Shown here: positions 26,622 to 55,432 of the stretch, in pieces
How the letters are laid out: each line of letters begins with the position of its first letter
Numbering within the stretch: position 1 is the stretch's first letter
NCBI GenBank assembly: GCA_027005735.1
Contig: JALTLF010000218.1
Coordinates: 22,935 to 86,934, forward strand
DNA length: 64,000 nucleotides
Direction: 5' to 3'
DNA from: Chromatiales bacterium
GTDB lineage: Bacteria; Pseudomonadota; Gammaproteobacteria; CAMYNG01
Program-made: the position numbers and the translations under genes
The notes under the pieces: model-generated
Database searches by the model: none
Told to the model about the DNA's origin: nothing
The model's input: the letters and a program-made list of their open reading frames with translations, nothing else

Positions 26622-26709
26622 GGAGAGCTGGCTGAGTGGTCGAAAGCGGCGGTCTTGAAAACCGTTGACCGGCGACGGTCCGGGGGTTCGAATCCCTCGC
26701 TCTCCGCCA
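26622..26709 (+). tRNA. serT: tRNA-Ser (anticodon UGA), type II tRNA with long variable arm, CCA encoded
   Basis: GGAGAGCTGGCTGAGTGGTCGAAAGCGGCGGTCTTGAAAACCGTTGACCGGCGACGGTCCGGGGGTTCGAATCCCTCGCTCTCCGCCA. Acceptor stem GGAGAGC/GCTCTCC, anticodon loop CU-UGA-AA, long variable arm, T-loop GGTTCGAATCC. Closely parallels E. coli serT. Confidence 0.9.
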
Positions 26710-27142: not shown

Positions 27143-27538
27143 ATGTCGCGGATCAAGATCTACAGGCTCGGTCGCAACAGCAGTAATGATTATGTCATCA
27201 ACGACGACACGGTCTCGCGTTCACACGCGGAATACATCGTCTGTGATGATGGCCGCCTGTACGTAACCGATTGTCACAGTACCAGTGGCACCTTCGTTTT
27301 CCGCGGTGAGACCTGGCAGAAGATCCGCCAGGACTTCGTGGCCCCCGATGAGAAGCTGCGCTTCGGCGAGGCCGAGGTGAGCCCCGTGGAACTGGCATCT
27401 CGCGCAAAGGCCAGTGGACCCACGGCGGCAACCGTGGCCCCGCAGGCCGGCGAGAGTGAAAAGCTTTCCGAAGCACCGGAGGCGGGCACCGGTTTCGTGC
27501 GCAATCCCGAAACGGGCGAAATCATTTCCAAACAATAA
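27143..27538 (+). CDS. FHA-domain protein (small, N-terminal FHA, disordered C-tail)
   Basis: YRLGRNSSNDYVINDDTVSRSHAEYIVCDDGRLYVTDCHSTSGTFV has the FHA hallmarks (GR, SRxH, S-x-NGT-like TSGTFV). Confidence 0.8.
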   Translation: MSRIKIYRLGRNSSNDYVINDDTVSRSHAEYIVCDDGRLYVTDCHSTSGTFVFRGETWQKIRQDFVAPDEKLRFGEAEVSPVELASRAKASGPTAATVAPQAGESEKLSEAPEAGTGFVRNPETGEIISKQ

Positions 27539-27558
27539 CACGAGACAATAATCAGGAA

Positions 27559-28314
27559 ATGGGAAATCGCACCACCGTATTACTGGTCAGCTCGGGTGCC
27601 GGCCTTGTTTTCATTCTGCTGCTCAGCCTGGTCCTCGACAGCGGTTTCTTTGCCGATTTTCTCCTCGATCGAAACACGAGCTGGGCGCCGTACCCGTTCA
27701 CCATCCAGAATGTCATGTGGCTGGTATTCTTCTTTGGCCTGGGCGAACTGTATCTTCGCCACGAGAGCGGCAGCGATGACCTGCGGCAGATTTCGCTGGG
27801 TCTCCTGCCCGAGGACGAAACCAGTCTCCTGCGCCCGAAAGACCTGCCGGCACTCTACCGCAAGGTACGCCAGTCCGATCCGGACAGGCGGCATTTTTTA
27901 CAACGCATGTTGACGCGCTGTATCCTGCAGTTTCAGAGCAGTAATTCCGTGGACCAGGCAAATACCCTGTTCAATTCCAGCCTCGAGCTGTACCAGCACG
28001 AGGTGGAGCTGCGCTATAACATGTTGCGCTATATCGTCTGGCTCATCCCGACCCTGGGGTTCATCGGCACGGTTGTGGGGATCGCGCTCGCCCTCAGTGA
28101 TGCCGGCGCGGCAAAGGATTTCCAGGATCCGGAACTGCTCAAGGTCCTGACCAGGAGCCTGGGCGTGGCGTTTTATACTACCTTGCTGGCGCTGATGATG
28201 TCGGCGGTGCTGGTATTTCTCATGCACGTGATCGAAGGCCGGGAAGAACGCGTGTTGAATACGGTTGGTCAATATACGCTCGATAACCTGATCAACCGGC
28301 TCTATGAAAAATAA
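27559..28314 (+). CDS. MotA/TolQ/ExbB-like proton-channel family membrane protein (orphan, no ExbD/TolR/MotB partner)
   Basis: Topology is an N-terminal TM pair, a cytoplasmic loop, then two C-terminal TMs. WLIPTLGFIGTVVGIALAL matches the conserved LGLLGTVxG channel helix of ExbB/TolQ, followed by a second amphipathic TM (LGVAFYTTLLALMMSAVLVFL). Confidence 0.55.
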   Translation: MGNRTTVLLVSSGAGLVFILLLSLVLDSGFFADFLLDRNTSWAPYPFTIQNVMWLVFFFGLGELYLRHESGSDDLRQISLGLLPEDETSLLRPKDLPALYRKVRQSDPDRRHFLQRMLTRCILQFQSSNSVDQANTLFNSSLELYQHEVELRYNMLRYIVWLIPTLGFIGTVVGIALALSDAGAAKDFQDPELLKVLTRSLGVAFYTTLLALMMSAVLVFLMHVIEGREERVLNTVGQYTLDNLINRLYEK

Positions 28315-28409
28315 ATGATCCCCCGGAATCGGTGGCAGGGAACCGACCGCAGCTCGATGCCGCGCCACCGCAGGGCTTGAACCACCAAAGCAGAACAGGC
28401 AGGTAAACC

Positions 28410-29003
28410 ATGAGTGACTCTGACTACGATTCACCTACCCGCAAGGTAGGATCTCCGACACGGCGCAATACGGTCAAATCGGGTGACGCGGGCGCCACCC
28501 GTCCGGCAGGAAGAGGTGGCGCCGCTGATAGCGGTGAGACAAAGACCCAGATCTATCGGCCGGGGCGTCGGCGGGATGCCGATGCCGACACCCAGTCCAA
28601 CCCCACCGGCAGTAGCGCGCGTCGCGCCGCCGCCTCCGCCATGGACGATCCCCCCGCGGGCTGGCTGGTGGTCATCAGGGGACCGGGGATGGGCAGTGTC
28701 GTGACCATCGGCATAGGCAGCAATTCCATCGGCCGGGATGCCAGCGAACGCATCAGCCTGGACTTCGGCGATGAGACCATTTCCCGTGAAGGCCATGCCA
28801 TCGTAACCTACGATCCGCGTGGCAAGAAGTTCTATATCCAGCATGGGGGCGGCAAGAACCTGACCTATCTCAACAACGAACCCGTGCTGGCCCCCGCCGA
28901 ACTGGAAGCGGGTGCGGAGATCGTCATCGGGGAGACTGCGCTGCGCTTCATGCCGCTGTGTGGGCCCGACTTCAACTGGGAAGATCTCGAGACGGATCGG
29001 TAA
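28410..29003 (+). CDS. FHA-domain protein (disordered Arg/Ser/Thr-rich N-terminus, C-terminal FHA)
   Basis: WLVVIRGPGMGSVVTIGIGSNSIGRDASERISLDFGDETISREGHAIVTYD...GGKNLTYLNNEPV is an FHA core. Confidence 0.8.
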   Translation: MSDSDYDSPTRKVGSPTRRNTVKSGDAGATRPAGRGGAADSGETKTQIYRPGRRRDADADTQSNPTGSSARRAAASAMDDPPAGWLVVIRGPGMGSVVTIGIGSNSIGRDASERISLDFGDETISREGHAIVTYDPRGKKFYIQHGGGKNLTYLNNEPVLAPAELEAGAEIVIGETALRFMPLCGPDFNWEDLETDR

Positions 29004-29025
29004 GGACAGCAAAGAAAGCGAGCGC

Positions 29026-29769
29026 ATGTTTCAGGTTAAAGGCGATCAAATCATCGGCGCCCGGACGCGCCAGGAAGACAGTTTTCGCATTGAACAACTG
29101 GATACCACGGCACAGCACCTCATGGTCATCACTGACGGCATGGGTGGTCATGCAGGTGGCGCGCAGGCAAGCCGCATCGTGGCAGACAGCTTCGTCGATG
29201 CATGGCTTGGTGGAGAAGGTACAACGGTGGATCGCCTGCACGATGCGCTGTTTTACGCCAACGACCAGGTGGCCCGGGCGATAGAAGACGATCCGGAGCT
29301 GGTCGACATGGGAACGACCCTGCTGGCCTGTGTGCTGGATGGCAGTGAGTTGTCCTGGGTCAGCGTGGGTGATTCCATACTGTGGGTTTACCGTGACGGT
29401 AAGCTGCTGCGCATCAACGACGATCACTCCATGGCCCCGGTAATCGATGGCCTGGTGGAAATCGGTCGCATGACACCCGAAGAGGCCGCCAGTGACCCCA
29501 GGCGGAACCAGTTGCGTTCAGTAGTGACGGGTGAGGACATACCGCTCATCGATATCAGCAAGACGCCTCTCGTGCTGGAGGACGCTGATATCCTGCTGCT
29601 CGCCACGGACGGCATCCTCACATTGGGTGAGGACGAAATTATTTCCGTGCTGCGGGATAGCCGCCCAGCGGGACCCGAGGCATGCGCCGGAGCGATTTTC
29701 GCCGCCATTGAATCACATGCGGAGCCACAGCAGGACAATACGACCCTGATAGTTGCTTCGCAAGACTGA
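29026..29769 (+). CDS. PP2C-family Ser/Thr protein phosphatase
   Basis: RQEDSF...VITDGMGGHAGG, LLATDGI and the C-terminal DNTTLIV are metal-binding motifs of bacterial PP2C (Stp/PppA-like). Start at the internal ATG of ORF 28912..29769. Confidence 0.85.
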   Translation: MFQVKGDQIIGARTRQEDSFRIEQLDTTAQHLMVITDGMGGHAGGAQASRIVADSFVDAWLGGEGTTVDRLHDALFYANDQVARAIEDDPELVDMGTTLLACVLDGSELSWVSVGDSILWVYRDGKLLRINDDHSMAPVIDGLVEIGRMTPEEAASDPRRNQLRSVVTGEDIPLIDISKTPLVLEDADILLLATDGILTLGEDEIISVLRDSRPAGPEACAGAIFAAIESHAEPQQDNTTLIVASQD

Positions 29770-29814
29770 ACTACGAGCTCCGGCCGACGCCGGTGAGTCA
29801 ACGCAGGAAAAAGA

Positions 29815-31299
29815 ATGAAAACATCCATCCTGAAGAAGATCCTTGTTTCGACCCTGATCATCCTCTCGTGCCTTGTGCCGATATCGTTCGCCGCCGCGGA
29901 TGCCATTCTCGACCAGACAGGAAAGGCCCTGGTCCGGATCCATGTTCTGCATGGCGGCAAGGTAGAGAGTGAGCAGATCGGTTTCATCATCAACAATGAA
30001 ACGGGTCATGTGGCAACCTACTCAGGCAGCCTGGGCAAGGACAGCACGGTCAGCATTACCACCGCCAGCAACCATGAACTCAAGGCAGAGGTCGTCTTGC
30101 TGCGCCCCGAGGAGGGCGTGGCCATCTTGCGCACCAATCTCGCCGGGATGGATGTGGACTCCGTCCTGTTTGCAAAGGATCCCCTCGAAGATGGACGTAC
30201 GGTGGCAACAGCGGTTCTTTCCGGTAGTGCGCCGGACACGGAGATCGGTATACGCCGCGGCAGTGTCGGGCAAATGGTGCCGGCGGTGGGCACTGGCAAG
30301 CCGGTGCTCATTCAGCACAACGCGCTGGCAAATACCCGCAGCTTTGGCGCGCCGCTGTTCAACAACTGTGGTGAAGTTGGCGGCCTGCTGATACCGGAAA
30401 AACGCGCGCTGACGGCCATTTTCGGCGTGCCCGATGCACAGGAAGAGGGCGTTGCCTACGCGATAAGTGGCGAATGGTTGAAGAATCTCCTGCTGGCGAA
30501 CGATATTCCGTATTACACCGCGGAAGAGACCTGTGCCAGCGAGATCGAGCAGGTCGCCCAGGCCGAGGGGGATGTGGAGCGGGCCGAGGAAGAGATCCGC
30601 GCCGCCAACGAACGCCTGGACGAACTGCGGCGCCAGCTCGAAGAGGCCGGACAGGCCAGCGCCGAGGAGCGGGCGCGCCTGCAGGACGAAATAAAGAAGG
30701 CCGAAGCCTCGGTACAGGCGCTGAAGAAGAAGCAGAAAGAGCTCGAGGCGCAGGCGGCGGAGCTGGCCGAGCGGGCCGAGGCCGTGCGCAAACGCGAGCG
30801 GCAGGTGACCATCGCCGCCGCCGTCGTTGTTGCCATCCTGTTACTGCTGGTTTTACTCGCATGGCGGCGCAAGCGCCGTGCCCTGCGGGAGAAACAGGCG
30901 GCGGAGCGGGCACGCCGGGAAACGGAAGGGGAGCTGGAAAAGAAACTGGCAGAAGAGGCCATGTTGAAGGAGATCCCCGACGTGCTGCTCGAAGCGGAGT
31001 CACCGGACGGGGAGAAATTTGCAGTCAAGATCCCGGGGCCCAATCTTGGCGGCGCGGAAGGGGCGACAGTAGGTCGCAATCCCGAGATGAGTAATTTCGT
31101 CATCAATCATCCCGATGTGTCCCGCACGCATTTCCGCCTGCTGTCAGTACGCAAGCAACTTCTGATCGAAGACCTGGGATCGACCAATGGTACCAGCATC
31201 AACGGCATCCTGCTTGGTGAAGGCGAACTGGAAGCGGTCATGAATGGCACCGTTATCAGGATCGGGGACCTGCGCATCAAGGTGACGATAAAACAATGA
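29815..31299 (+). CDS. Signal peptide / degenerate trypsin-like (S1) domain / periplasmic coiled coil / TM helix / cytoplasmic FHA domain
   Basis: Cleavable N-terminal signal peptide and an S1-like fold. Compared with the downstream paralogue the catalytic positions are altered (EGVAILRT in place of IDVALLRT; RSFGAPLF in place of GNSGGPLF). Heptad-rich EIEQVAQAEGDVERAEEEIRAANERLDELRRQLEEAG..., TM IAAAVVVAILLLLVLLAW, C-terminal FHA (ATVGRNPEMSNFVINHPDVSRTHFRLL...GSTNGTSINGILL). Confidence 0.75.
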   Translation: MKTSILKKILVSTLIILSCLVPISFAAADAILDQTGKALVRIHVLHGGKVESEQIGFIINNETGHVATYSGSLGKDSTVSITTASNHELKAEVVLLRPEEGVAILRTNLAGMDVDSVLFAKDPLEDGRTVATAVLSGSAPDTEIGIRRGSVGQMVPAVGTGKPVLIQHNALANTRSFGAPLFNNCGEVGGLLIPEKRALTAIFGVPDAQEEGVAYAISGEWLKNLLLANDIPYYTAEETCASEIEQVAQAEGDVERAEEEIRAANERLDELRRQLEEAGQASAEERARLQDEIKKAEASVQALKKKQKELEAQAAELAERAEAVRKRERQVTIAAAVVVAILLLLVLLAWRRKRRALREKQAAERARRETEGELEKKLAEEAMLKEIPDVLLEAESPDGEKFAVKIPGPNLGGAEGATVGRNPEMSNFVINHPDVSRTHFRLLSVRKQLLIEDLGSTNGTSINGILLGEGELEAVMNGTVIRIGDLRIKVTIKQ

Positions 31300-31318
31300 A
31301 TCACAGTGGAACTGGATA

Positions 31319-32638
31319 ATGTCTGAGAAACTCATGCGGCGCTCCCTGCTTCTCGGGGCTTGTCTCCTGTGTCTGCTGCTGGTGCCAGCGAGTGTGCTTG
31401 CGCGGCAGTTCGACGTGGTCAAGCTTGAGAAGAGCGTGGTTCGTGTCATCACCAACAACGGGACCGGCACCGGTTTTGTCATCAACAAGGATGGCTATGT
31501 TCTCACCAATCACCACGTCATCGAAGGCGCCTCACGTTTTGTCGTGATGTCAAGTTACCTGGCACAACCGGTCGAGGCCGAGGTGGTGTTTTTCGATCGC
31601 CAGATCGACGTCGCGCTTCTTCGTACCCGCGGTCTCAATCTGCCGCCGGTAACACTGACCACCGTGACACCGGAAAAGAGCGACCAGGTTTTCGCGTTCG
31701 GTTTCCCCGGTCTCGCCGACTACGGCTCCTGGGAAGAGATTGAAGGCATTGCCCTGGATGTCACCATTACCGATGGCGTCCTGAGCCGCATTTTTGATCA
31801 GCCCTGGGCGGGAAATTCCACGGTGATCACCATTCTCCAGCACAACGCCCAGATCAATCCGGGCAACAGCGGTGGCCCGCTGTTCGATCTATGCGGGCGC
31901 GTGATCGGTATCAATACCCAGCAGGGTGTCGGCGGCCAGGGGATTTTCTGGGCCTCGCACATCAAGGAGGCAATGGGCCTGCTGAAGCAGAAGAACATCC
32001 GTTTCAAGGTCACCAGCAAGCCCTGCAAGGAAGTGACGCCGGCCGCGCCACCTCCGCCGCCGGCACCGGCGCCGAAGGTGATTGTGCCTCCGCAGTCGCG
32101 TTACACCCCCTGGCTGGTGGCGCTTTCCATTCTCGTTGCCACCGCGGCACTGTTGCTGGCGCTCAGAAAGCCGCGCGAGCGCATCGTGGAAGTGACCAAG
32201 CGCTACGCGAGTGGTATCACGCGGCGCATTACCGGGGCAAGGAAAGACACGCAAAGCGAGGGGGGCGCCACTGTCAGGGCAGGTGCAGGCGGGAAGAGCC
32301 AGGGGAAAAAGGCTGGCAGGACGGGCTTGTTGCTTTCCGGGTTTACCAGCGGGGGCAAGCCAATACGCGTCGAGATCACCGATCAGCAACTCGCCGGTCT
32401 GGGGTTCAGTCTGGGGCGTCATCCCAACCTGGTGGACTTCGTTATCGCCGACGACTCCCTGTCACGGCGTCATTTGCGCATCAGCGGGGGACATGGGCGC
32501 TACTACGTGGAAGACCTCAACTCCAGCAACGGGGTATTGATCAACGGCAAGCCGGCGAAACCCTTCGCCAGGGTCGAGATTGTGCCGGGTGACAGGCTGA
32601 CGCTGGGAGACGTGGAAATCGATGTGTCCCGGATTTAA
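31319..32638 (+). CDS. Signal peptide / HtrA- or trypsin-like serine protease (intact triad) / TM helix / cytoplasmic FHA domain
   Basis: Catalytic His (GTGFVINKDGYVLTNHHVIEGA), Asp (IDVALLRT) and Ser (INPGNSGGPLFD) are all present. Pro-rich linker, TM WLVALSILVATAALLLAL, C-terminal FHA (FSLGRHPNLVDFVIADDSLSRRHLRI...SSNGVLINGKP). Confidence 0.8.
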   Translation: MSEKLMRRSLLLGACLLCLLLVPASVLARQFDVVKLEKSVVRVITNNGTGTGFVINKDGYVLTNHHVIEGASRFVVMSSYLAQPVEAEVVFFDRQIDVALLRTRGLNLPPVTLTTVTPEKSDQVFAFGFPGLADYGSWEEIEGIALDVTITDGVLSRIFDQPWAGNSTVITILQHNAQINPGNSGGPLFDLCGRVIGINTQQGVGGQGIFWASHIKEAMGLLKQKNIRFKVTSKPCKEVTPAAPPPPPAPAPKVIVPPQSRYTPWLVALSILVATAALLLALRKPRERIVEVTKRYASGITRRITGARKDTQSEGGATVRAGAGGKSQGKKAGRTGLLLSGFTSGGKPIRVEITDQQLAGLGFSLGRHPNLVDFVIADDSLSRRHLRISGGHGRYYVEDLNSSNGVLINGKPAKPFARVEIVPGDRLTLGDVEIDVSRI

Positions 32639-32689
32639 GCGCCTGGCACGGCGTTTGCCGGTGTCCGTCTCCGTGTCAGGACGCCAGCC

Positions 32690-33511
32690 GTGAGACGCCG
32701 CAACCGGGAGATCAATATCTTCAACGTTTCGGCGCTGGACCTGTTTGCCTCGGCGCTGGGGGCCTTCATACTCATCACGGTGGTCCTGTTCCCCTACTTT
32801 CCAAATACGGGAGACTCGCCGGAGCGGGTGGCGACCTGCAAGCAGGCCCTGCAGGAATGCCGCAAGGAAAAACAGCGTCTCGAACGGGAACTGGCCAGGG
32901 CACAATTCCCCCATCTCGACCTTGTCATTGCCCTGGATGTCACCGGCAGCATGAAAGAACAGATCGACGGTCTGAAGTCGGAACTACAGCAACTGACCAT
33001 GGTGCTGGGAAAACTGGCCCCTTCCCTCGGTATTGGCGTGGTTGCCTTTGGCGACCGAAAATGGGAACAACCCATCTTCACCTATCGTCTCAGGGAGGTT
33101 GGCGGCTCCCCTGCCAATTTCCGGGATCTGCAGCGATTCATCGATGGCCTGGCACCCAACATGGGCCTGGGTTCGGGGGATAACGATGATTACCCCGAAG
33201 CCGTTGCGCGCGCGTTAGATGAAGCCATAGCGATGCCGTGGCGGGCGCAGGCAAAGAAACGGATCATTGTCGTCATCACCGACAATCCGGCCTACCCGGA
33301 AAGGATTAGCTATTCTTTACGAAGGGCAGAGGAATTTGCGCGTACACCGGGACAACAGGTGTCCACCGTTCTGGTGATTTCGCAAAATGATCCCGAAATC
33401 TATGGGCCGGCACGGGAATTTTTGGCTAAACTGGCCCGTAAGGGGAAAGGAGAAGCCGTCAAGGCCGGCGGCTCCATGACTGCGGCACTGCTGTTGGCAT
33501 TGCTGGGATAA
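32690..33511 (+). CDS. Membrane-anchored periplasmic von Willebrand factor A (vWA) domain protein
   Basis: Basic N-terminus, TM LFASALGAFILITVVLFPYF, then LVIALDVTGSM (MIDAS DxSxS-type motif) and a Rossmann-like vWA fold (IGVVAFGD..., IIVVITDNPA). Confidence 0.75.
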   Translation: MRRRNREINIFNVSALDLFASALGAFILITVVLFPYFPNTGDSPERVATCKQALQECRKEKQRLERELARAQFPHLDLVIALDVTGSMKEQIDGLKSELQQLTMVLGKLAPSLGIGVVAFGDRKWEQPIFTYRLREVGGSPANFRDLQRFIDGLAPNMGLGSGDNDDYPEAVARALDEAIAMPWRAQAKKRIIVVITDNPAYPERISYSLRRAEEFARTPGQQVSTVLVISQNDPEIYGPAREFLAKLARKGKGEAVKAGGSMTAALLLALLG

Positions 33512-33553
33512 TTTGACTACCGAGGCACATCAAACCAGAAGCAGGAAATAACG

Positions 33554-34528
33554 ATGAATGATAACCATACGACAGTGAGAGAGAAAGGCGTATCGGGCTG
33601 GCTCATTACGGCCATACTTGGTCTGATGTTTGGTTCAACGGCGGCCTATGCGGATCAACCGTCCGATACGGCGACCTTCGATGCGGAATTCCAGGTCGCT
33701 CTGGAAGAGCAACCCGATCCTGCCCGTCTGCAGGCCATGCTACGGCTTGCCGAGGCAAAGAGCAGCAGCGGTGGAGGCGGCGGCAGCGCGCCCGTGGCGA
33801 GCGGGGGAAATGTCTGGTTCGCCATCTTTCGCACTACCGACAACCGACAGCGCTGGGTACGCAACACTTCGCTCCAGGAGTTCACGAATTCCATTCGCAA
33901 GGCCTGGAGGGACGGCTATCATCTCAAGCGTGTCAACTACGCCGATGGGCGCTGGGTGGGCATCTTCGTCGACACCAAGGTGGGTTGTGCCGAACGTAAC
34001 GGTTTTGAAACCGCTGGTTCACGCGAGGCTTTCCTCAAGGCCGTAAAGCAACGTTGGGTCGATGGTTATACCCTGGTAGATGCGGCCTATGGCGAAGGCA
34101 CCTGGTTTGGTAACTTCTGTGAGGATCCCCGTGACAATACCTATGTCACGGCGAGTGACTGGGATGCCCTGAGCAACCTGATCAGCAAGAAATGGGACCA
34201 GGACAGCCAGTGGCACGTGCTCTCAGCAGACCGTGGTCCCGACGGCTGGTTGGCGGTATTCGTCAAGGGGGAGTGCCCGGGACGCAATGGCTGGAGCATC
34301 TATGATTCCCAGGCCGCCCTGGAAGAAGCACTGCGCGACAGCAACAACGACGGTTTCGCGGTTCGCAACATGGCCTACACCAATGGAAACTGGATTGCGA
34401 TGCGTTGCGAAGAGGATGTCAGCAACATCTATGAAACTGCCGCCAGCTGGCCGCAGTTGAAGGAAAAAATCAAGCAGCGCTGGGGTCAGGGCCTAGACCT
34501 GATCGCCATCGACTACGGTCGGCGCTAG
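33554..34528 (+). CDS. Secreted protein made of five tandem copies of an uncharacterised ~55-aa W/G/aromatic repeat; paralogue of the kinase ectodomain
   Basis: Signal peptide (ITAILGLMFGSTAAYA). Repeats: NVWFAIFRTTDNRQRWVRNTSLQEFTNSIRKAWRDGYHLKRVNY..., ERNGFETAGSREAFLKAVKQRWVDGYTLVDAAYGEGTWFGNF, NTYVTASDWDALSNLISKKWDQDSQWHVLSA..., RNGWSIYDSQAALEEALRDSNNDGFAVRNMAYTNGNWIAM, SNIYETAASWPQLKEKIKQRWGQGLDLIAIDYG. About 60-70% identical to residues ~485-725 of the kinase. Confidence 0.7.
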   Translation: MNDNHTTVREKGVSGWLITAILGLMFGSTAAYADQPSDTATFDAEFQVALEEQPDPARLQAMLRLAEAKSSSGGGGGSAPVASGGNVWFAIFRTTDNRQRWVRNTSLQEFTNSIRKAWRDGYHLKRVNYADGRWVGIFVDTKVGCAERNGFETAGSREAFLKAVKQRWVDGYTLVDAAYGEGTWFGNFCEDPRDNTYVTASDWDALSNLISKKWDQDSQWHVLSADRGPDGWLAVFVKGECPGRNGWSIYDSQAALEEALRDSNNDGFAVRNMAYTNGNWIAMRCEEDVSNIYETAASWPQLKEKIKQRWGQGLDLIAIDYGRR

Positions 34529-34839
34529 CTCGCATATCCACACTTGGGGGCGGTCCCGGTCTCCGGGACCGCGCCCTGCCAGCGTGGAACCTTCCACGGC
34601 AGGCCCGGCAGGACGCCGCCACGGGAATACCGTCGTGCCCCCGTGTCGGTGGGGGCCGAAGGGCGCGCGCCTGGCCCGAGTCATTGAAATTGCGGGGATT
34701 TTCAGGTTAGATAAGCCACGTGGCGAGGATGTTGTCGGTAACGGCGAGCTTCCACGCCCGGCGCCATGCTCACATGGCCACTGGATCTACCCCCGGGATC
34801 CCGCTGGTCGCGGTACATTAAAATCATAATGAAGTCGCC

Positions 34840-37017
34840 ATGAACGAACATCACCATTCCCTGCCGGAGGGCTACCAGCTTTTCGAATATCGCATCGATG
34901 GTATTCTGGGCACCGGTGGCTTCGGGATCACCTACCTTGGGTGGGACAGCAATCTCGACAAGCAGGTGGCCATCAAGGAGTACCTGCCCGGTGAATACGC
35001 CGTGCGTCTCGAAGGCGAGACCGTGGCGCCCCGGTCCACCGAGGACGAAGACGACTATGCCTGGGGGCTGGAGCGTTTTCTCGACGAGGCCCGTGCCCTG
35101 GCCCGCTTCGATCATCCCAATATCAACCGCGTACTGCGTTTTTTCGAAGCCAACAACACGGCCTACCTGGTGCTGGAGTACGTCGAGGGCAGGACGCTGG
35201 CCAAGGTTCTCAAGTCCGGCTACAGCTTCAGCGAAGCCGAGATCACCGAAATGCTGGGCGCCATGCTGTCCGGCCTGGCGGTGGTGCACCGTGCCGGCTA
35301 TGTTCACCGCGACATCAAGCCGGCCAATATCATGTTGCGCCCGGACGGCCAGCCGGTATTGCTGGATTTCGGCGCTGCCCGCCAGGCCATCGGCCGCAAG
35401 ACACAGAGCATTACCACGGTCCTCACCCCCGGCTATGCGCCCATCGAGCAGTATGACCAGCATGCCGAGGACATCGGCCCGTGGACCGATATTTACGCAC
35501 TCGGCATGGTCTTCTACCGCTGCGTCACCGGGATCTCGGACGGTGAACTGGTCGATGCCGTGGCGCGCGCGCGCATGCAGCGCAAGGGAGAAGATCCCCT
35601 CGCGCCGGCGGTGATCGCCGCGCAGGGCAAGTACAGTCCGAAGTTGCTCGAAGCCATCGACTGGGCAGTGGCGGTCAACGAGGAGGATCGTCCCCAGAAC
35701 GTCTCCGAACTCACCTCGATTCTGCCGGCCTTCGAAAACCGCACCCAGGTCTCGGGACGCGGTGATACCCAGGCCCCCACGCAGGCCGCCGGCCAGGCCC
35801 CGGGCGGGCGGCATCCGGCGGATCAGAAGACCCGGGCGGTCGCGCCGGTGGGCATGACCAGTGGTGCCCGCTGGGCACTTGGCGTGACGCTGGCGCTGGT
35901 TCTCATCGGCATTGCCCTGGGTGCGGCGTGGGTCTTCTGGGCCGGCCCGCCCGATGGAGGGGAGTCCGGCGGCCCGCTTGCCGGTGGGCCCGCGCCCGGT
36001 CCGCAGGCCACGGATCCCACGCCCGCGGTGGCCTCGCCCGTGGAAGTCGCGCCGGCCTACCTGGTGGTGCGCAGCAATGTCTCCGGCGATCACGTCATCG
36101 TCGATGGTCGGGATCTCGGGCACAGCGGGACGCGCCGTCACGAACTGGCACCGGGTGAACATGAAATACGGGTGGAGAAAAAGGGTTACATCCCCTGGAA
36201 GCGGACGCTGACGCTGGAGAGTGGCAAGACCCTCACGGTCAGGGCGCGCCTGCGTCCCCTCGCCGGGGTGCCACCGGTGGCCGGCGGGGGCCGCAGGGGC
36301 CACTGGTTTGCCGTGTTCAGGTCGACGGACAACCGCCAGCGCTGGGTACGCAACAGTTCACTCCAGGAGTTCACGGCTTCCATCCAGAAGGGCTGGGAAG
36401 ACAACTACCACCTGAGCCGCGTGATCTACAGCCGTAATACCTGGGTCGGGGTTTTCGTTGACCCGGCGGTGGGCTGCGCCAATCGAAACGGCTACGAGGT
36501 GGCGAGTACGCGCAGCGAGTTCATTAATCGTATCAAGGAGCGCTGGAAGGATGGTTTCACGCTCGTGGACATGGCCTACGGCGAGGGCGTGTGGTTTGGA
36601 AACTTCTGTGAGGACGCGCGTGGCAATACCTATGCCACGGCATCCACCTGGGATGCGCTGGCGAAAAAGATCAGCCAGAAATGGAACAAGGACAGCGATT
36701 GGCATGTCATCTCGGTGGAGCGAGGCAGGGGCGGCTGGATGGCGGTCTTCGTCAAGGGGCTGTGCCCGGGGCGCAACGGCTGGAACCGTGTCGGCTCCAG
36801 CGCGGAGCTGGAAAGGGAACTCCGGCAGGGTAGCCGCGAGGGGTTTTCGGTACGCAATATCCGCTACACCGACGGCGCCTGGTATGCCCTGCGTTGCGAG
36901 GACGGGATGCACAACATCTATGAAACCGCCAGCAGTTGGGAGGAAATGAAGAAAAAGATCAGTACGCGCTGGAGCCAGAAACTGGATCTCGTGGCGCTGG
37001 ATTACGGCCCCAACTGA
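34840..37017 (+). CDS. Hanks-type Ser/Thr protein kinase / TM / periplasmic PEGA domain / five-repeat ectodomain
   Basis: GTGGFGITYLG...VAIKE (P-loop and VAIK Lys), HRDIKPANIML, DFGAA, TPGYAPIEQ. TM WALGVTLALVLIGIALGAAWVFW. PEGA-like YLVVRSNVSGDHVIVDGRDLGHSGTRRHELAPGEHEIRVEKKGYIPWKRTLTL. Five repeats HWFAVFRSTDNRQRWVRNSSLQEF... to ...LDLVALDYGPN. Confidence 0.85.
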   Translation: MNEHHHSLPEGYQLFEYRIDGILGTGGFGITYLGWDSNLDKQVAIKEYLPGEYAVRLEGETVAPRSTEDEDDYAWGLERFLDEARALARFDHPNINRVLRFFEANNTAYLVLEYVEGRTLAKVLKSGYSFSEAEITEMLGAMLSGLAVVHRAGYVHRDIKPANIMLRPDGQPVLLDFGAARQAIGRKTQSITTVLTPGYAPIEQYDQHAEDIGPWTDIYALGMVFYRCVTGISDGELVDAVARARMQRKGEDPLAPAVIAAQGKYSPKLLEAIDWAVAVNEEDRPQNVSELTSILPAFENRTQVSGRGDTQAPTQAAGQAPGGRHPADQKTRAVAPVGMTSGARWALGVTLALVLIGIALGAAWVFWAGPPDGGESGGPLAGGPAPGPQATDPTPAVASPVEVAPAYLVVRSNVSGDHVIVDGRDLGHSGTRRHELAPGEHEIRVEKKGYIPWKRTLTLESGKTLTVRARLRPLAGVPPVAGGGRRGHWFAVFRSTDNRQRWVRNSSLQEFTASIQKGWEDNYHLSRVIYSRNTWVGVFVDPAVGCANRNGYEVASTRSEFINRIKERWKDGFTLVDMAYGEGVWFGNFCEDARGNTYATASTWDALAKKISQKWNKDSDWHVISVERGRGGWMAVFVKGLCPGRNGWNRVGSSAELERELRQGSREGFSVRNIRYTDGAWYALRCEDGMHNIYETASSWEEMKKKISTRWSQKLDLVALDYGPN

Positions 37018-37982: not shown

Positions 37983-38441
37983 TCAGGGCGTCAGCCGCTT
38001 GTGCATGCGGGTATGGGTGATACAGCCGAACAGGGTCGGCCCCGGCCCCGCCTCTGCGTAACCCTGCCGGCGGTAGAAGCCCACCGCGCCGCTACGGGCG
38101 TTGAGACTGATTTCGCCGAGGCCCATTTCCCGTCCGCGTGCCTCCAGCCAGGCGAGGATGGCCGTGCCGACGCCACATCCCCGTGCGTCTTCCGCCACCG
38201 CCATGTAGCGGATCGCCCCTTCTCCCTCCGTCACGCGCTGCAGGCGTCCCACCCCCAGGGCCGCGCCGCCTTCGTCTCGCACCAGGCAATGAACGGCGCG
38301 TGAGGGAGGGCTGTCCCAGGCATCGCGCTCGCTACCCCGGGGCTGTCGCCAGGGGGCGCGCAACACCTGCCAGCGCAGGGCGAAATAGGCCTGCCACTCC
38401 GCCGTGGTGGCGGGCGGGCCGATGCGCCAGGACTCAGGCAA
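37983..38441 (-). CDS. GNAT-family N-acetyltransferase
   Basis: Acetyl-CoA motif A: RYMAVAEDARGCGVGTAILAWLEARGREMGL. Confidence 0.7.
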   Translation of the reverse strand: MPESWRIGPPATTAEWQAYFALRWQVLRAPWRQPRGSERDAWDSPPSRAVHCLVRDEGGAALGVGRLQRVTEGEGAIRYMAVAEDARGCGVGTAILAWLEARGREMGLGEISLNARSGAVGFYRRQGYAEAGPGPTLFGCITHTRMHKRLTP

Positions 38442-39042
38442 AGACCACCCAGGTGGTGGCGATGTACTTCACCCCCGCTTCCAGGGTCACGCCGCGGTGT
38501 TCGTGGGTCCAGAAGGGGGGAAACAGCAACAGGCTGCCCTCGCGGGGCGTGACCTTGAGATCCTGGAAGAGAAACTCCGTCTCCCCGCCGGGACCGGCGA
38601 CGTCGTTGAGGTACCACACCGCCACCAGCTGGCGCTGGGAGAACTCGTGGCTGCCGCCGTCGATGTGCCAGTGGTAGTGCTCGCCCGGCAGGGTACGCTG
38701 GATGGCGTAGCCCATGTCCTTGAACGGGCCCTTGAAGTAGGGGAAGTGTTCGCGGAACTCGAGGATGGCCTCGCCGAGCGAGCGAAACAGGGCGCGGTCG
38801 ATGTCCTTCCAGTGGGGCTTGCCGCTGACCACCAGGTCGGTGGACTTCTTGATGCTGCGATCCTTTTGCGCCAGCTGGCCGATACGGCCCTCGTATTGCT
38901 CGTCGTCGGCGGCCTCGAAGCGCGAAATCATCTCGCGACACAGGGCGGCGGGCAGGGCATGCTCCTTGAGGAAGATGAAACTGTTGGGGGCCAGCTCGCG
39001 AATGGTCTGCAAGGGGCGGCGGGTGGATGCTTCGGACGACAT
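38434..39042 (-). CDS. 2OG-Fe(II) oxygenase superfamily protein (PhyH/P4H-like)
   Basis: HWHIDGG ... TEFLF ... FWTHEHRG gives an HxD...H facial triad with an Arg for 2OG. Confidence 0.65.
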   Translation of the reverse strand: MSSEASTRRPLQTIRELAPNSFIFLKEHALPAALCREMISRFEAADDEQYEGRIGQLAQKDRSIKKSTDLVVSGKPHWKDIDRALFRSLGEAILEFREHFPYFKGPFKDMGYAIQRTLPGEHYHWHIDGGSHEFSQRQLVAVWYLNDVAGPGGETEFLFQDLKVTPREGSLLLFPPFWTHEHRGVTLEAGVKYIATTWVVFA

Positions 39043-39080
39043 GGGACAACCCCGGGGGTGACAAATGGCAGGGGGATTGT

Positions 39081-40127
39081 CTACAGGGTGTGCTTGTCGA
39101 TCAAGTCCTGCGTGGCCTGCTGGAGCGCCGCCGGGCCCCTTTCGTGGGCCGCGAGCAAGCGCGTGGCGGCCTCTCGCCAGTGTGCGCGGCCCGTGTCGAT
39201 GAGACGCGCGAAGACGTCCCAGTCACCGCTCTCGCGCCACGCTTGCCAGGCCGCCAGCAGGGCGGGGAACAGAACCTTGCGCATGCCGGTGAGATTGGCG
39301 ACATAGTAGTGCAGCGAGGGCGTGCGCCGCGCCGCCACCAGCTCGGGCAGGGTGGTGAGGCAGTCGGCGTAGAGATCCTTGACCGCGCGGGCGATCAGCT
39401 CGCTGCGGCTGCGCGGCAGGGCGGCGAGCATCTCCCGCCACTGGGGGCCAAGTGCGCGACCCGCGGTGATCTCGCCGATCTCGTGCAGGCGCACGGTGTC
39501 CAGTTCCTGGTTGGTCATGGCCTCCAGGGCGTCCTCCAGCCTGCCTTCGAAGTCGTAGCAGCCGAAGGCGGCGCCAAGGGCATTGTCGGGACGATTCCAG
39601 CGCCACTCCTCCAGTTTCTGCCACAGCAGGGCGCGCAGGGCCTCGCGGCGCAGGAAGATGGTGCTACCCTGGACCATGGCCGGCGGGGCGCTGAGATCGC
39701 GGGCGTATTCCTCGCCGCAGGTGAGGATGCGGTAACCATCACGTTCCTCGCAGGCCACGAGACGGGCGAGGAAGAAGTGGGGGCGGGCGCGCTGTCCCAG
39801 CCCGGCGCTGTAGACCAGGCCTTCCTCCAGCAGGTGGCGGTTGACCGCCTCGGTCTCGAAGGGCGGCACCTGCTCGCCGGCCACCGGCACGTCGGCATAG
39901 TCCTCTTCTTCCAGCTCGCTCCACAGGGCCTCGCGCTCCATCAGCCAGTTGCTCAGCGGCTCGTTGGGCAGGCGCGCGGAGAAACCGAAGCCATGTTCCC
40001 AGCGAAAGAATTCGCGCATCTTCATCAAGTAGATACACACGGTGTCGTCACCGGCGTGGCGGGCATCCGCGATGTGGCAGTTGCGTTGCACGGCTTCGCA
40101 GACAGGCTGAGCGACGGGTTTGTTCAT
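39081..40127 (-). CDS. Conserved hypothetical protein (~349 aa)
   Basis: Strong GC3 bias and a long uninterrupted frame. No recognisable motif. Start tentatively at MNKPVAQP. Confidence 0.5.
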   Translation of the reverse strand: MNKPVAQPVCEAVQRNCHIADARHAGDDTVCIYLMKMREFFRWEHGFGFSARLPNEPLSNWLMEREALWSELEEEDYADVPVAGEQVPPFETEAVNRHLLEEGLVYSAGLGQRARPHFFLARLVACEERDGYRILTCGEEYARDLSAPPAMVQGSTIFLRREALRALLWQKLEEWRWNRPDNALGAAFGCYDFEGRLEDALEAMTNQELDTVRLHEIGEITAGRALGPQWREMLAALPRSRSELIARAVKDLYADCLTTLPELVAARRTPSLHYYVANLTGMRKVLFPALLAAWQAWRESGDWDVFARLIDTGRAHWREAATRLLAAHERGPAALQQATQDLIDKHTL

Positions 40128-40290
40128 CACGGCATCCGGCTCCTCGTGATGGCGGGGGTTCACCCACACCGTTGAAAAAATGGTAGCATTGCCGCAGCCC
40201 GCTTGCTATTAACCTGAAAAATCAGGGGTTTTTCACGGCAGGGGGGCCGCGGGCCACCCGTGCCCGCCCATGGTCAAATAGCGAAGAGGT

Positions 40291-54168: not shown

Positions 54169-54174
54169 AACCTG

Positions 54175-55415: not shown

Positions 55416-55432
55416 TGGGCTTCCCCGTTGGC

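What the first reader, a model, noticed from the sequence alone, without database searches (positions are those of the whole stretch)
27143..37017. Nine-gene, co-directional FHA / STK / PP2C / vWA / protease / MotA-like locus next to tRNA-Ser: candidate undescribed envelope phospho-signalling and proteolysis system
In under 10 kb, all on one strand and tightly spaced, sit four FHA domains (two stand-alone, two fused to proteases), a PP2C phosphatase, a Hanks kinase with a large extracytoplasmic sensor, a secreted paralogue of that sensor, a TM-anchored periplasmic vWA protein, two TM-anchored periplasmic S1 proteases and an orphan MotA/TolQ/ExbB-like channel. The kinase/phosphatase/FHA/vWA set resembles the T6SS threonine-phosphorylation pathway (PpkA-PppA-Fha1, where PpkA carries a periplasmic vWA) and actinobacterial FhaA/PknB/PstP modules. 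Here, however, no T6SS, peptidoglycan synthase or other output machinery is present, and the outputs appear to be proteases and a proton channel. The locus lies between housekeeping tRNA-Ser/yccA and uvrY, with no integrase or direct repeat, so it looks like a resident chromosomal module rather than a mobile island. I am not aware of this exact architecture having been described. The mechanistic model (kinase autophosphorylation recruiting FHA-tagged proteases across the membrane) is my inference.
Basis: partly seen in the sequence, partly recalled or inferred. Interest (0 to 1): 0.9.

Follow-up and report, generated by a model that had tools for sequence, protein, structure and literature searches.

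The report
Kinase-controlled TolQ-like motor and protease cassette
The nine genes are one copy of a widespread, probably horizontally acquired envelope cassette that links receptor Ser/Thr kinases, a phosphatase and phosphothreonine-binding FHA proteins to a TolQ/MotA-like proton motor, whose likely partner is the membrane-anchored vWA protein; its biological role is unknown.

Summary
Nine co-directional genes at 27143-37017 encode FHA, a MotA/ExbB-like protein, FHA, PP2C, two trypsin-like-TM-FHA proteins, TM-vWA, a secreted repeat protein and a Hanks kinase carrying a paralogue of that repeat domain.

There are three corrections:
- The upstream "protease" (P5) has lost its catalytic triad. 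So have all 33 of its relatives examined.
- The MotA-like gene is probably not an orphan. The vWA protein starts with a single TM helix carrying an invariant Asp and co-occurs with the MotA-like gene in 18 of 20 well-flanked loci. A 2025 paper proposed this type of TolQ-like/vWA 5:2 motor.
- The locus looks acquired. Its GC3 is 0.71 against 0.85 in the flanks, and related cassettes sit in unrelated contexts, some beside integrases or transposases.

The order FHA-MotA-FHA-PP2C, plus trypsin-FHA, TM-vWA and one to three kinases with interchangeable sensor domains, recurs in gammaproteobacterial genomes and many marine metagenome contigs. In one genome the kinase sensors are diversified by retroelements. 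No T6SS is nearby.

The most likely mechanism is that receptor kinases create phosphothreonine marks read by the FHA proteins, which gate the motor and the tethered protease pair; PP2C resets the system. I found no paper linking the motor to the kinase, FHA and protease genes. The biological role is open.

The parts
26622..26709 (+). tRNA-Ser (anticodon TGA); left boundary of the low-GC3 segment and a possible former insertion site
   Evidence: ARAGORN; Rfam tRNA 58.6 bits. No repeat of its 3' end was found downstream.
27143..27538 (+). P1: small cytoplasmic FHA protein (131 aa), encoded immediately upstream of the motor gene
   Evidence: Pfam FHA 1.1e-12. An FHA gene lies directly upstream of the MotA-like gene in 41 of 54 loci. 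Conserved GR...SR.H residues and a conserved C-terminal R...tG.i motif are seen across 57 sequences.
27559..28314 (+). P2: TolQ/ExbB/MotA-like channel subunit (251 aa), the most conserved protein of the cassette
   Evidence: MotA_ExbB 2.2e-12. It is 56-68% identical across many lineages, with invariant Thr165/Thr171 and Thr207/Thr208 in the last two TM helices. The AF2 model has pLDDT 89.2. All top 50 Foldseek PDB hits are ExbB, TolQ, MotA, PomA or ZorA chains; the best TM-score is 0.59 to TolQ 8vlw_B.
28410..29003 (+). P3: cytoplasmic FHA protein (197 aa) with a disordered Ser/Thr-rich N-terminal arm (GarA/OdhI/FhaB-like layout)
   Evidence: FHA 1.6e-10. NCBIfam hits to FhaB/FipA 1.6e-11 and OdhI 5.2e-10, both below their cut-offs. 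An FHA gene lies directly downstream of the MotA-like gene in 45 of 54 loci. There is a semi-conserved Thr about 45 residues before the FHA core.
29026..29769 (+). P4: PP2C-type Ser/Thr phosphatase (247 aa), cytoplasmic
   Evidence: PP2C_2 2.8e-12. Stp1/IreP family 1.1e-37, below the equivalog cut-off. The metal-binding motifs DGMGGH, GDS, TDG and DNTT can be read directly in the sequence. PP2C is present in 14 of 20 well-flanked loci.
29815..31299 (+). P5: signal peptide, catalytically dead trypsin-like domain, coiled coil, TM helix, cytoplasmic FHA (494 aa)
   Evidence: Trypsin_2 1.3e-06 and FHA 1.9e-13. The triad positions read G-G-F instead of H-D-S. None of the 33 P5-type relatives keeps the triad, while 31 of 33 keep the FHA residues R-S-H-N.
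31319..32638 (+). P6: signal peptide, active-looking HtrA/DegS-like S1 protease domain, TM helix, cytoplasmic FHA (439 aa)
   Evidence: Trypsin_2 9.7e-30 and FHA 4.7e-15. His66, Asp97 and Ser184 are invariant in 27 homologues, and H-D-S is kept in 16 of 19 P6-type relatives. 2577 proteins match at E<=1e-10, and the 120 listed nearly all carry the same trypsin+FHA architecture.
32690..33511 (+). P7: N-terminal TM helix with invariant Asp17, coiled coil, periplasmic vWA domain with a DxTxS MIDAS-type motif (273 aa); probable B-subunit of the P2 motor
   Evidence: D17, L18, F19, A20, G24 and F26 are invariant in 37 sequences, and D17, F19, A20, G24 and F26 in 85 further representatives. The vWA profile hits ITIH4 at 5e-12. 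A P7-type gene is present in 18 of 20 well-flanked MotA-like loci. The anchor occurs in 852 clusters at 50% identity and sits at the N-terminus in nearly all of the 150 listed. It is followed by vWA in at least 52 of 85, with no other globular domain seen. This matches the published description of 'TPH-vWA' proteins.
33554..34528 (+). P8: secreted protein (324 aa) with a five-fold beta-alpha-beta-beta repeat domain; paralogue of the kinase's sensor domain; lineage-specific accessory
34549..34574 (+). GC-rich hairpin after the P8 stop codon, inside the 311-nt gap before the kinase gene; possibly separates two transcription units
   Evidence: Read directly in the sequence. It was not called by the terminator scan because it has no T-run.
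34840..37017 (+). P9: receptor Hanks-type Ser/Thr kinase (725 aa): cytoplasmic kinase, TM helix, periplasmic PEGA domain and P8-like repeat domain
   Evidence: Pkinase 8.8e-37 and PEGA 1.9e-14. The motifs VAIK, HRDIKPAN and DFG can be read in the sequence. The C-terminus is 62% identical to P8. Kinases are present in 17 of 20 well-flanked loci, with varying sensor domains: Ank, FGE-sulfatase, Sel1, PEGA and Beta_helix.

Best explanation
The locus is one copy of a conserved, self-contained and horizontally mobile envelope cassette.

Core components:
(i) A TolQ/MotA-like channel protein (P2). It most likely forms a proton-driven 5:2-type motor with the vWA protein (P7). P7's N-terminal helix carries the Asp that MotB, TolR and ExbD use for proton binding, and its vWA domain reaches into the periplasm.
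(ii) Two small cytoplasmic FHA proteins (P1, P3), encoded on either side of the motor gene.
(iii) A PP2C phosphatase (P4).
(iv) One or two bitopic proteins with a periplasmic trypsin-like domain and a cytoplasmic FHA domain. Here there is one active-looking form (P6) and one dead form (P5).
(v) One to three receptor Hanks kinases whose periplasmic sensor domains differ between genomes. Here the sensor is PEGA plus a rare five-repeat domain, which is also made as a secreted paralogue (P8).

Proposed mechanism:
1. A periplasmic or extracellular cue binds the kinase sensor.
2. The kinase phosphorylates threonines on itself or on cassette partners.
3. The four FHA domains read these marks. This gates or assembles the motor and positions the tethered protease/pseudo-protease pair.
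4. The motor pulls or turns its vWA domain against a periplasmic or outer-membrane target.
5. PP2C resets the system.

Shown here: the domains, the predicted topology, the conserved catalytic and binding residues, the dead triad in P5, the co-conservation and gene order, the invariant Asp helix, and the TolQ/ExbB fold of P2.

Inferred: the P2-P7 complex (also predicted independently in the literature), who phosphorylates whom, the direction of signalling, and the output. The biological role is not established. I lean towards surveillance of variable external ligands.
For: - All domain assignments are confirmed.
- The gene set and order are conserved at 27-66% identity in L007, L008, L009, L171 and L173.
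- In 20 non-redundant loci with at least 7 kb on both sides of the MotA-like gene, the P7-type anchor occurs in 18, FHA in 18, STK in 17, PP2C in 14 and trypsin+FHA in 11. FHA genes directly flank the motor gene in 41 and 45 of 54 loci.
- P2 and the first roughly 70 residues of P7 are the most conserved parts of the cassette (56-66% and 36-65% identity).
- The Asp-bearing helix is invariant and is attached only to coiled coil plus vWA.
- The P2 model matches only ExbB, TolQ, MotA, PomA and ZorA chains.
- PMC12204202 reports TM-tethered vWA proteins that co-occur tightly with tolQ-like genes lacking tolR/exbD. Their AlphaFold 3 models place the Asp inside the Thr ring of the pentamer.
- The active H-D-S triad and the FHA pThr-binding residues are conserved in the P6 type.
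- Kinase and PP2C catalytic motifs are intact.
- Sensor domains vary between loci, and in L171 two kinase-FGE-sulfatase genes are each followed by bAvd plus a reverse transcriptase, the signature of diversity-generating retroelements.
- Composition and varied contexts indicate horizontal transfer.
Against: - No experiment bears on any step.
- Sequence similarity of the P7 helix to E. coli TolR, ExbD or MotB is not significant by hhalign and is no better than for control TM helices. Pfam ExbD and MotB_plug models do not hit.
- I could not verify by sequence that the published TPH-vWA family is this one.
- Detection used single-sequence phmmer, so the absences (PP2C in 6 and trypsin-FHA in 9 of 20 loci) may be sensitivity limits or real variation.
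- Many cassettes carry only the dead trypsin-like form, so proteolysis is not a universal output.
- No conserved phospho-acceptor site was found. TQ motifs are not enriched in the juxtamembrane segments, and no Thr is invariant in the cytoplasmic domain of P2.
- Flanking genes show no consistent defence-island context, no cassette protein matches a PADLOC system beyond generic domains, and no copy was found in viral contigs.
Confidence: 0.55

Rival explanations
1. It is an anti-phage or anti-competitor immune system. The variable, sometimes retroelement-diversified, kinase sensors recognise invader molecules at the envelope. Phospho-signalling then opens the TolQ-like/vWA channel or releases the protease, causing membrane depolarisation, growth arrest or destruction of an invader component. 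This would be a Zorya-like or abortive-infection logic. It is a specific version of the main explanation's output.
For: - Horizontal mobility and composition.
- Integrases or transposases lie next to the cassettes in L007, L009 and L172.
- Sensor domains are interchangeable and there are often several kinases per locus.
- DGRs sit on two kinase genes in L171.
- Weak ZorA hits for P2.
- MADS components and SoFic occur in a few flanks.
- TerY-P-like vWA/PP2C/STK modules act as stand-alone anti-phage systems, according to PMC11090510 citing Gao et al. 2020.
Against: - No consistent defence-gene neighbourhood: each PADLOC family hits at most 2 of 128 flanking ORFs, and the flanks are mostly metabolic.
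- No PADLOC model beyond generic kinase, protease and MotA domains.
- No nuclease, TIR or other familiar effector is present.
- No relative was found in viral contigs.
- No experimental evidence.
Confidence: 0.3
2. It is an envelope-maintenance or force-transduction system, a Tol-Pal/Ton-like accessory motor. The vWA protein pulls on an outer-membrane or periplasmic partner. The kinase, phosphatase and FHA proteins only tune its activity to envelope state, and the protease does quality control.
For: - PMC12204202 interprets TolQ-like/vWA pairs as pmf-driven force transducers acting on the outer membrane.
- P6 is closest to the HtrA/DegS/MarP envelope proteases.
- Mycobacterial FhaA/FhaB-PknB-PstP modules regulate envelope synthesis (established knowledge; P3 gives below-cut-off hits to FhaB/FipA).
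- The flanks are mostly housekeeping or metabolic.
Against: - A patchy, mobile distribution and low GC3 are unusual for a housekeeping function.
- Sensor domains are swapped freely and can be hypermutated by DGRs. This fits recognition of variable ligands better than self-envelope sensing.
- No outer-membrane partner gene is conserved in the cassette.
Confidence: 0.3
3. It is a threonine-phosphorylation pathway of the T6SS type (PpkA-PppA-Fha) that controls a secretion or motility apparatus encoded elsewhere in the genome.
For: - The STK + PP2C + FHA + vWA set resembles PpkA/PppA/Fha1 (established knowledge).
- The FHA domains give weak TagH/VI_FHA hits, 1e-6 to 2e-10, below the cut-off.
- P1 gives a weak hit to the gliding protein GltG.
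Against: - No T6SS or gliding genes occur in the 64-kb window or within 10 kb in seven other annotated loci.
- The vWA domain is on a separate protein with a motor-type anchor, not on the kinase.
- The cassette moves as a self-contained unit into unrelated contexts.
- All TagH hits are far below the family cut-off.
Confidence: 0.05
4. The genes are independent modules that merely lie next to each other in this genome.
For: None beyond the larger 311-nt gap and hairpin between P8 and the kinase gene.
Against: The same set and order are conserved across distant lineages and dozens of contigs.
Confidence: 0.02

Closest known systems
[quoted passage not shown]
   Same: A TolQ/ExbB-like gene with no tolR/exbD/motB gene, tightly linked to a gene for a TM-tethered vWA protein whose helix carries the conserved Asp. 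Found mainly in Proteobacteria. The vWA genes often come in pairs, as seen here in L145, L152, L163 and L151.
   Different: That paper does not mention kinases, and its only 'FHA' word match is FhaC, an unrelated outer-membrane protein. Here the motor pair is embedded in a conserved STK/PP2C/FHA/trypsin-FHA cassette. The window has a single vWA gene. Identity of the two families rests on matching descriptions, not on a sequence comparison.
Zorya ZorAB (anti-phage 5:2 motor)
   Same: A MotA-like pentamer-type subunit outside flagella or Tol/Ton, in a mobile cassette. P2 gives weak ZorA hits (3.4e-06), and ZorA chains of 8vvn are among the structural matches (TM 0.52-0.56).
   Different: P2 has no long ZorA tail, there is no ZorB peptidoglycan-binding domain, and there is no ZorC/D/E. 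The hits are domain-level only. The kinase, PP2C and FHA layer has no Zorya counterpart.
TerY-P triad (vWA + PP2C + Ser/Thr kinase; Anantharaman et al. 2012, as summarised in PMC11090510) and the Deinococcus DRA0331-0334 vWA-STK-FHA-PP2C operon (bioRxiv 10.64898/2026.01.23.701218)
   Same: Co-transcribed vWA, PP2C and Hanks kinase (plus FHA in Deinococcus), forming a mobile phospho-switch module.
   Different: TerY-type vWA proteins and their kinases are cytoplasmic, with the kinase fused to a zinc ribbon or OB fold. Here the vWA domain is periplasmic on a motor-type anchor, the kinases are receptor kinases, and a TolQ-like channel and trypsin-FHA proteins are added. P7 gave no PADLOC hit at all.
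T6SS threonine phosphorylation pathway (PpkA-PppA-Fha1/TagH)
   Same: A receptor Hanks kinase, a PP2C and FHA readers control an envelope machine, with a vWA domain in the periplasm (established knowledge).
   Different: In PpkA the vWA domain is part of the kinase. Here it is on a separate motor-type protein. No T6SS genes are nearby. The TagH model scores 29-41 bits against a cut-off of 120.
Actinobacterial FhaA/FhaB(FipA)-PstP-PknA/B and GarA/OdhI FHA switches
   Same: Small FHA proteins with Thr-rich N-terminal arms encoded beside a PP2C and receptor kinases. P3 hits FhaB/FipA at 1.6e-11 and OdhI at 5.2e-10.
   Different: Scores are far below the equivalog cut-offs (44.5 against 125 bits; 39.3 against 200). 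There are no RodA/PBP or metabolic-enzyme partners. The host is a Gram-negative gammaproteobacterium.
N-terminal domain of fungal polyglycine hydrolases (Fvan-cmp, PDB 7tpu)
   Different: Only 10% sequence identity. There is no beta-lactamase-like catalytic domain. Here the fold serves as a bacterial periplasmic sensor or secreted domain.

Membership tests
MotA/TolQ/ExbB family (A-subunit of 5:2 ion-driven motors) | Sequence match to the MotA_ExbB channel domain above the curated threshold | tested here: met
   PF01618 at 47.3 bits against a cut-off of 22.9, E 2.2e-12.
MotA/TolQ/ExbB family (A-subunit of 5:2 ion-driven motors) | Fold of the subunit: TM hairpin of two long helices plus a helical cytoplasmic domain | tested here: met
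   AF2 pLDDT 89.2. All top 50 Foldseek PDB hits are ExbB, TolQ, MotA, PomA or ZorA, with TM up to 0.59.
MotA/TolQ/ExbB family (A-subunit of 5:2 ion-driven motors) | Conserved pore-lining Thr residues in the last two TM helices | tested here: met
   T165, T171, T207 and T208 are invariant in 40 sequences. Their equivalence to the TolQ/ExbB Thr ring is inferred from position, not from a superposition.
MotA/TolQ/ExbB family (A-subunit of 5:2 ion-driven motors) | Pentamer enclosing a dimer of a single-pass partner that carries an essential Asp | not testable with these tools
   No multimer prediction was available. Indirect support: the invariant Asp17 helix of P7 and 18/20 co-occurrence, and the AF3 models reported in PMC12204202.
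MotB/TolR/ExbD-type B-subunit (for P7) | N-in single TM helix with a conserved Asp near the cytoplasmic end, followed by a periplasmic domain | tested here: met
   D17 is invariant in 37 + 85 sequences. Basic residues precede the helix, and a coiled coil plus vWA follows. The topology is inferred from the sequence.
MotB/TolR/ExbD-type B-subunit (for P7) | Detectable sequence homology to MotB, TolR or ExbD | tested here: inconclusive
   hhalign of the P7 N-terminal profile against E. coli TolR, ExbD and MotB gives probabilities below 2%, no better than control TM helices. Pfam ExbD and MotB_plug do not hit at E<=10. The segment is too short for such tests to decide.
S1/HtrA-like serine protease (P6 and P5) | His-Asp-Ser catalytic triad | tested here: met
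   P6: H66, D97 and S184 are invariant in 27 homologues and kept in 16 of 19 relatives. P5 does NOT meet it: its triad positions read G-G-F, and 0 of 33 relatives keep the triad. P5 has the fold only.
FHA domain (P1, P3, P5, P6) | Pfam match above threshold and the pThr-binding Arg, Ser, His and Asn residues | tested here: met
   FHA scores 41.7-56.2 bits against a cut-off of 20.7. R-S-H-N is kept in 17 of 19 P6-type and 31 of 33 P5-type proteins. The GR and SR.H motifs are conserved in P1 and P3.
TerY-P triad / TerY-P defence system | TerY-like cytoplasmic vWA protein, PP2C, and a kinase fused to a zinc ribbon or OB fold | tested here: not met
   P7 has no PADLOC hit. Its vWA domain follows an N-terminal TM helix, so it is periplasmic. 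P9 is a receptor kinase with PEGA and repeat domains and has no ZnR or OB fold. Only the vWA+PP2C+STK gene set is shared.
T6SS threonine phosphorylation pathway | TagH/Fha1-type FHA protein above the family cut-off, and linkage to T6SS core genes | tested here: not met
   TIGR03354 scores 28.9-41.2 bits against a cut-off of 120.25. There are no T6SS genes in the window or in seven other neighbourhoods.
Zorya | ZorA with a long C-terminal tail, ZorB with a peptidoglycan-binding domain, and ZorC/D or ZorE | tested here: not met
   ZorA models hit only the channel region of P2, at E 3.4e-06 or weaker, against models of 461-683 positions. P2 is 251 aa. No ZorB, ZorC, ZorD or ZorE hits.
Hanks-type Ser/Thr kinase and PP2C phosphatase | Catalytic motifs (VAIK, HRD, DFG; PP2C metal-binding Asp motifs) | tested here: met
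   Pkinase 127.4 bits and PP2C_2 47.1 bits, both above their cut-offs. The motifs can be read in the translations. Enzyme activity was not tested.

The most novel reading that the evidence does not exclude
The cassette is a previously unrecognised class of bacterial surface-receptor system. In it, eukaryote-like receptor kinases with swappable, sometimes retroelement-hypermutated, ligand-binding domains switch on a proton-powered TolQ-like/vWA motor and a tethered protease pair through phosphothreonine-FHA wiring. This would be the first ion-driven 5:2 motor controlled by Ser/Thr phosphorylation, and it may act as an immune-like sensor-effector machine.
Probability: 0.3. Interest if true: 0.85.

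Novelty: new variant of a known kind. Interest (0 to 1): 0.68.

Why it matters
Five-to-two ion-driven motors (flagellar stators, Tol, Ton, gliding motors, Zorya) are a small set of machines that carry energy from the inner membrane into the envelope. How they are switched on is a central open question.

This cassette places such a motor under what looks like direct control of Hanks kinases, a PP2C and four FHA domains. It is common enough to study: roughly 3,000 MotA-like and 2,600 trypsin-FHA relatives at E<=1e-10, and 852 anchor clusters at 50% identity and E<=0.001.

It offers a testable link between bacterial Ser/Thr signalling, whose outputs in Gram-negative bacteria are mostly unknown, and envelope mechanics. 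The diversified sensors in some copies suggest recognition of changing external ligands.

The P8 domain also extends to bacteria a fold so far matched only by a fungal polyglycine hydrolase among solved structures.

Tried and rejected
- The genome-contig scan with the trypsin-FHA profile chose the generic HtrA pattern GNSGGPL[FVI]D. It returned mostly unrelated proteases.
- The viral-contig scan with the MotA-like profile found no relatives.
- Profile comparison of the P7 helix with E. coli TolR, ExbD and MotB was not significant. Pfam at E<=10 gave no ExbD or MotB_plug hit.
- TQ autophosphorylation-type motifs are not enriched in the kinase juxtamembrane segments: 0.20 against 0.16 per 100 aa, present in 6 of 49 kinases.
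- No conserved defence-island context: each PADLOC family hits at most 2 of 128 flanking ORFs, and Pfam shows mostly metabolic genes plus 3 integrases.
- PADLOC on the nine proteins gave only generic kinase, protease and MotA-domain hits.
- No tRNA-derived direct repeat bounds the locus. There is no reverse transcriptase or Avd in the window.
- Rfam found only the tRNA.
- The promoter and terminator scans were at or below background.
- The afdb50 fold library was unavailable.
- Six literature searches found no description of the full cassette. The library lacks most subscription journals, so absence is not proof.

Full report
**1. What is in the sequence**

The + strand between 27143 and 37017 carries nine tightly spaced ORFs. 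I call them P1 to P9.

| Gene | Coordinates | Size (aa) | Assignment |
|---|---|---|---|
| P1 | 27143-27538 | 131 | FHA |
| P2 | 27559-28314 | 251 | MotA_ExbB |
| P3 | 28410-29003 | 197 | FHA |
| P4 | 29026-29769 | 247 | PP2C |
| P5 | 29815-31299 | 494 | weak Trypsin_2, coiled coil, TM, FHA |
| P6 | 31319-32638 | 439 | Trypsin_2, TM, FHA |
| P7 | 32690-33511 | 273 | TM, vWA |
| P8 | 33554-34528 | 324 | secreted repeat protein |
| P9 | 34840-37017 | 725 | Pkinase, TM, PEGA, P8-like domain |

The vWA call is marginal for the single sequence (9.1e-06). It becomes solid with a family profile, which hits the ITIH4 vWA domain at 5e-12. P8 and the C-terminus of P9 are clear paralogues: 62% amino-acid identity and 68-76% DNA identity.

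tRNA-Ser(TGA) lies at 26622-26709. The flanks are ftsK, lolA, rarA, serS and yccA on the left, and uvrY/gacA on the right. The larger ORFs in the rest of the window that I scanned are housekeeping or sulfur-metabolism genes, including ClpA, CysG and DsrK. None is a T6SS gene. The source is an uncultured gammaproteobacterial MAG.

**2. It is a conserved cassette, not a chance neighbourhood**

Trypsin-TM-FHA proteins form a large family: 2577 hits at E<=1e-10. Looking up three distant members in long contigs gave the same gene order each time: FHA, MotA_ExbB, FHA, PP2C, trypsin-FHA, trypsin-FHA, a P7-like gene, then one to three kinases. Identity to the window proteins was 27-66%.

The MotA-like protein is the most conserved component, at 56-68% identity over many lineages. 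I used a profile of it to fetch 80 metagenome loci, which I mapped with phmmer.

Among 20 non-redundant loci with at least 7 kb on both sides of the MotA-like gene:

| Component | Loci with it (of 20) |
|---|---|
| P7-type anchor protein | 18 |
| FHA | 18 |
| Kinase | 17 |
| PP2C | 14 |
| Trypsin+FHA | 11 |

An FHA gene sits directly upstream of the MotA-like gene in 41 of 54 loci, and directly downstream in 45 of 54. These are single-sequence searches, so the lower figures are minimum estimates.

Three more annotated examples agree: L171, L172 and L173, the last from Corallincola platygyrae. P8 is the exception. It has only three other clusters in 5.8 billion proteins and appears only in the near-identical locus L091. 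It is a lineage-specific accessory.

**3. Corrections to the anatomy**

*(a) P5 is not a protease.* I aligned 54 trypsin-FHA proteins from the loci. Sixteen of 19 P6-type proteins keep His-Asp-Ser. None of 33 P5-type proteins does; the window's P5 reads G-G-F. Both types keep the FHA phosphothreonine-binding residues. Many cassettes carry only the dead form.

*(b) P2 is probably not an orphan.* P7 begins with a basic stretch followed by one TM helix (consensus MKxRSREINIFSMSALDLFASALGAFIL...). Asp17, Leu18, Phe19, Ala20, Gly24 and Phe26 are invariant in 37 sequences. Five of these, all except Leu18, are also invariant in 85 further representatives.
- This anchor occurs in 852 clusters at 50% identity. 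It sits at the N-terminus in nearly all of the 150 listed.
- It is followed only by coiled coil plus vWA.
- Together with P2 it is the best conserved part of the cassette.
- P2's predicted structure (pLDDT 89.2) matches only ExbB, TolQ, MotA, PomA and ZorA chains. Four Thr in its last two TM helices are invariant.

All characterised members of this motor family work with a single-pass partner that carries an essential Asp (established knowledge). P7 is therefore the obvious candidate.

A direct sequence test against E. coli TolR, ExbD and MotB was not significant, so homology of the helix is unproven.

Independently, a 2025 Mol Biol Evol paper (PMC12204202) describes TM-tethered vWA proteins that co-occur tightly with tolQ-like genes lacking tolR/exbD. 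These proteins carry the conserved Asp in a 'transpore helix', and AlphaFold 3 places them inside the pentamer. The description fits this family, including the frequent pairs of vWA genes that I see in L145, L152, L163 and L151. I could not compare sequences. That paper does not mention kinases, and its only 'FHA' word match is FhaC.

*(c) The locus looks acquired.* Its nine genes have GC3 of 0.65-0.80 (mean 0.714). Seventeen flanking genes have 0.82-0.92 (mean 0.854). The ranges do not overlap, p=4e-5. Overall G+C is 0.606 for the locus against 0.645-0.660 for the flanks. Related cassettes lie in unrelated contexts, next to an rve integrase and phage-like genes (L007), transposases (L009), or three tyrosine integrases (L172). 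That does not make the module resident.

**4. The sensors**

The kinases of different cassettes carry different extracytoplasmic domains: ankyrin repeats, FGE-sulfatase, Sel1, PEGA and beta-helix. In L171, two kinase-FGE-sulfatase genes are each followed by bAvd and a reverse transcriptase. This is the signature of diversity-generating retroelements, which are known to target this lectin-like fold (background in PMC10907252 and PMC3575424).

**5. How it most likely works**

*Read from the sequences.* The cytoplasm holds the kinase domain, the PP2C, P1, P3 and the FHA domains of P5 and P6. The periplasm holds the kinase sensor, P8, the trypsin-like domains and the vWA domain. The membrane holds the P2 channel and the single TM helices of P5, P6, P7 and P9. 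The kinase and PP2C motifs are intact.

*Inferred.*
1. Ligand binding activates the receptor kinase.
2. The resulting phosphothreonines are read by four FHA domains.
3. P1 and P3 flank the motor gene in most loci, so they are the best candidates for gating the P2/P7 motor. P3 has the GarA/OdhI/FhaB layout of a Thr-rich arm plus FHA.
4. P5 and P6 would be drawn to phosphorylated partners. This would bring their periplasmic domains next to the sensor or to the vWA domain.
5. The motor would use proton flow to turn or pull the vWA domain.
6. PP2C resets the system.

I did not find a conserved acceptor site.

**6. What it is for**

This is open. Three features favour recognition of changing external ligands, possibly an immune-like role: mobility, swappable sensors and hypermutated sensors. 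Against a classical defence system:
- the flanks of 24 loci show no consistent defence context;
- PADLOC has no matching system;
- no copy was found in viral contigs.

An envelope-maintenance or force-transduction role, as suggested for the vWA motors in PMC12204202, is equally tenable. A T6SS-type regulatory pathway is unlikely, because no T6SS genes accompany the cassette anywhere.

**7. Comparison with known systems, and novelty**

The closest described systems, and how this cassette differs from each:

| Known system | Difference here |
|---|---|
| TolQ-like/TPH-vWA motors (PMC12204202) | Probably the same motor pair, but that work describes no signalling layer |
| TerY-P triad and the Deinococcus vWA-STK-FHA-PP2C operon | Those are cytoplasmic and have no motor |
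| T6SS PpkA-PppA-Fha pathway | No T6SS here; the vWA domain is on a different protein |
| Zorya | P2 has no ZorA tail; no ZorB, ZorC or ZorD |
| Actinobacterial FhaA/FhaB-PstP-PknB modules | Only domain-level similarity |

Six full-text searches found no description of the complete cassette. The library is incomplete.

I rate the finding a new variant of a known kind: a 5:2-type motor, already predicted, that is embedded in a conserved Ser/Thr phospho-signalling and (pseudo)protease cassette, apparently undescribed.

Noticed in passing
window 52936-63764 (- strand): Cluster of dsr-type sulfur-metabolism genes: a DsrK hit at 4e-184 (57455-58978) and a DsrL-like NAD(P)-binding protein at 55433-57373. 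This suggests the host is a sulfur-oxidising gammaproteobacterium.
   Followed up: partly
window 34529-34839: Unusually long 311-nt gap between P8 and the kinase gene. It holds a GC-rich hairpin (GCGGTCCCGG-TCTC-CGGGACCGC, 34549-34574) with no T-run. It may split the locus into two transcription units.
   Followed up: partly
L171:11639-20583: In a 10.3-Mb genome, two kinase-FGE-sulfatase genes of the cassette are each followed by bAvd plus a reverse transcriptase. These are apparent diversity-generating retroelements aimed at the kinase sensors.
   Followed up: partly
L105-L107, L110, L113, L125, L146, L151, L157 (upstream of the FHA-MotA genes, opposite strand): Many marine cassettes carry an extra, divergently transcribed pair: a PP2C protein of roughly 500-630 aa and a protein of roughly 770-830 aa ending in an FHA domain (sizes estimated from ORF coordinates). 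The pair is absent from the window.
   Followed up: no
[not shown]
   Followed up: yes
L009 and L010 (one 2.4-Mb contig, positions 2203716-2224918 and 2404140-2416301): The same cassette, with identical upstream genes, appears twice in one contig. The second copy runs into the contig end. This is probably an assembly overlap rather than a true duplication.
   Followed up: no
window 37983-40169 (- strand): Downstream of uvrY there is no uvrC. Instead there is an acetyltransferase, a 2OG-Fe(II) oxygenase and an Sfum_1244/DUF6866-family gene. The usual uvrY-uvrC linkage is absent here.
   Followed up: no
L145, L152, L155, L156, L165, L170: A sub-type of the cassette has two tandem P7-like vWA genes upstream, an oppositely oriented P3-like FHA gene, only the dead trypsin-like form, and no detected PP2C.
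   Followed up: no
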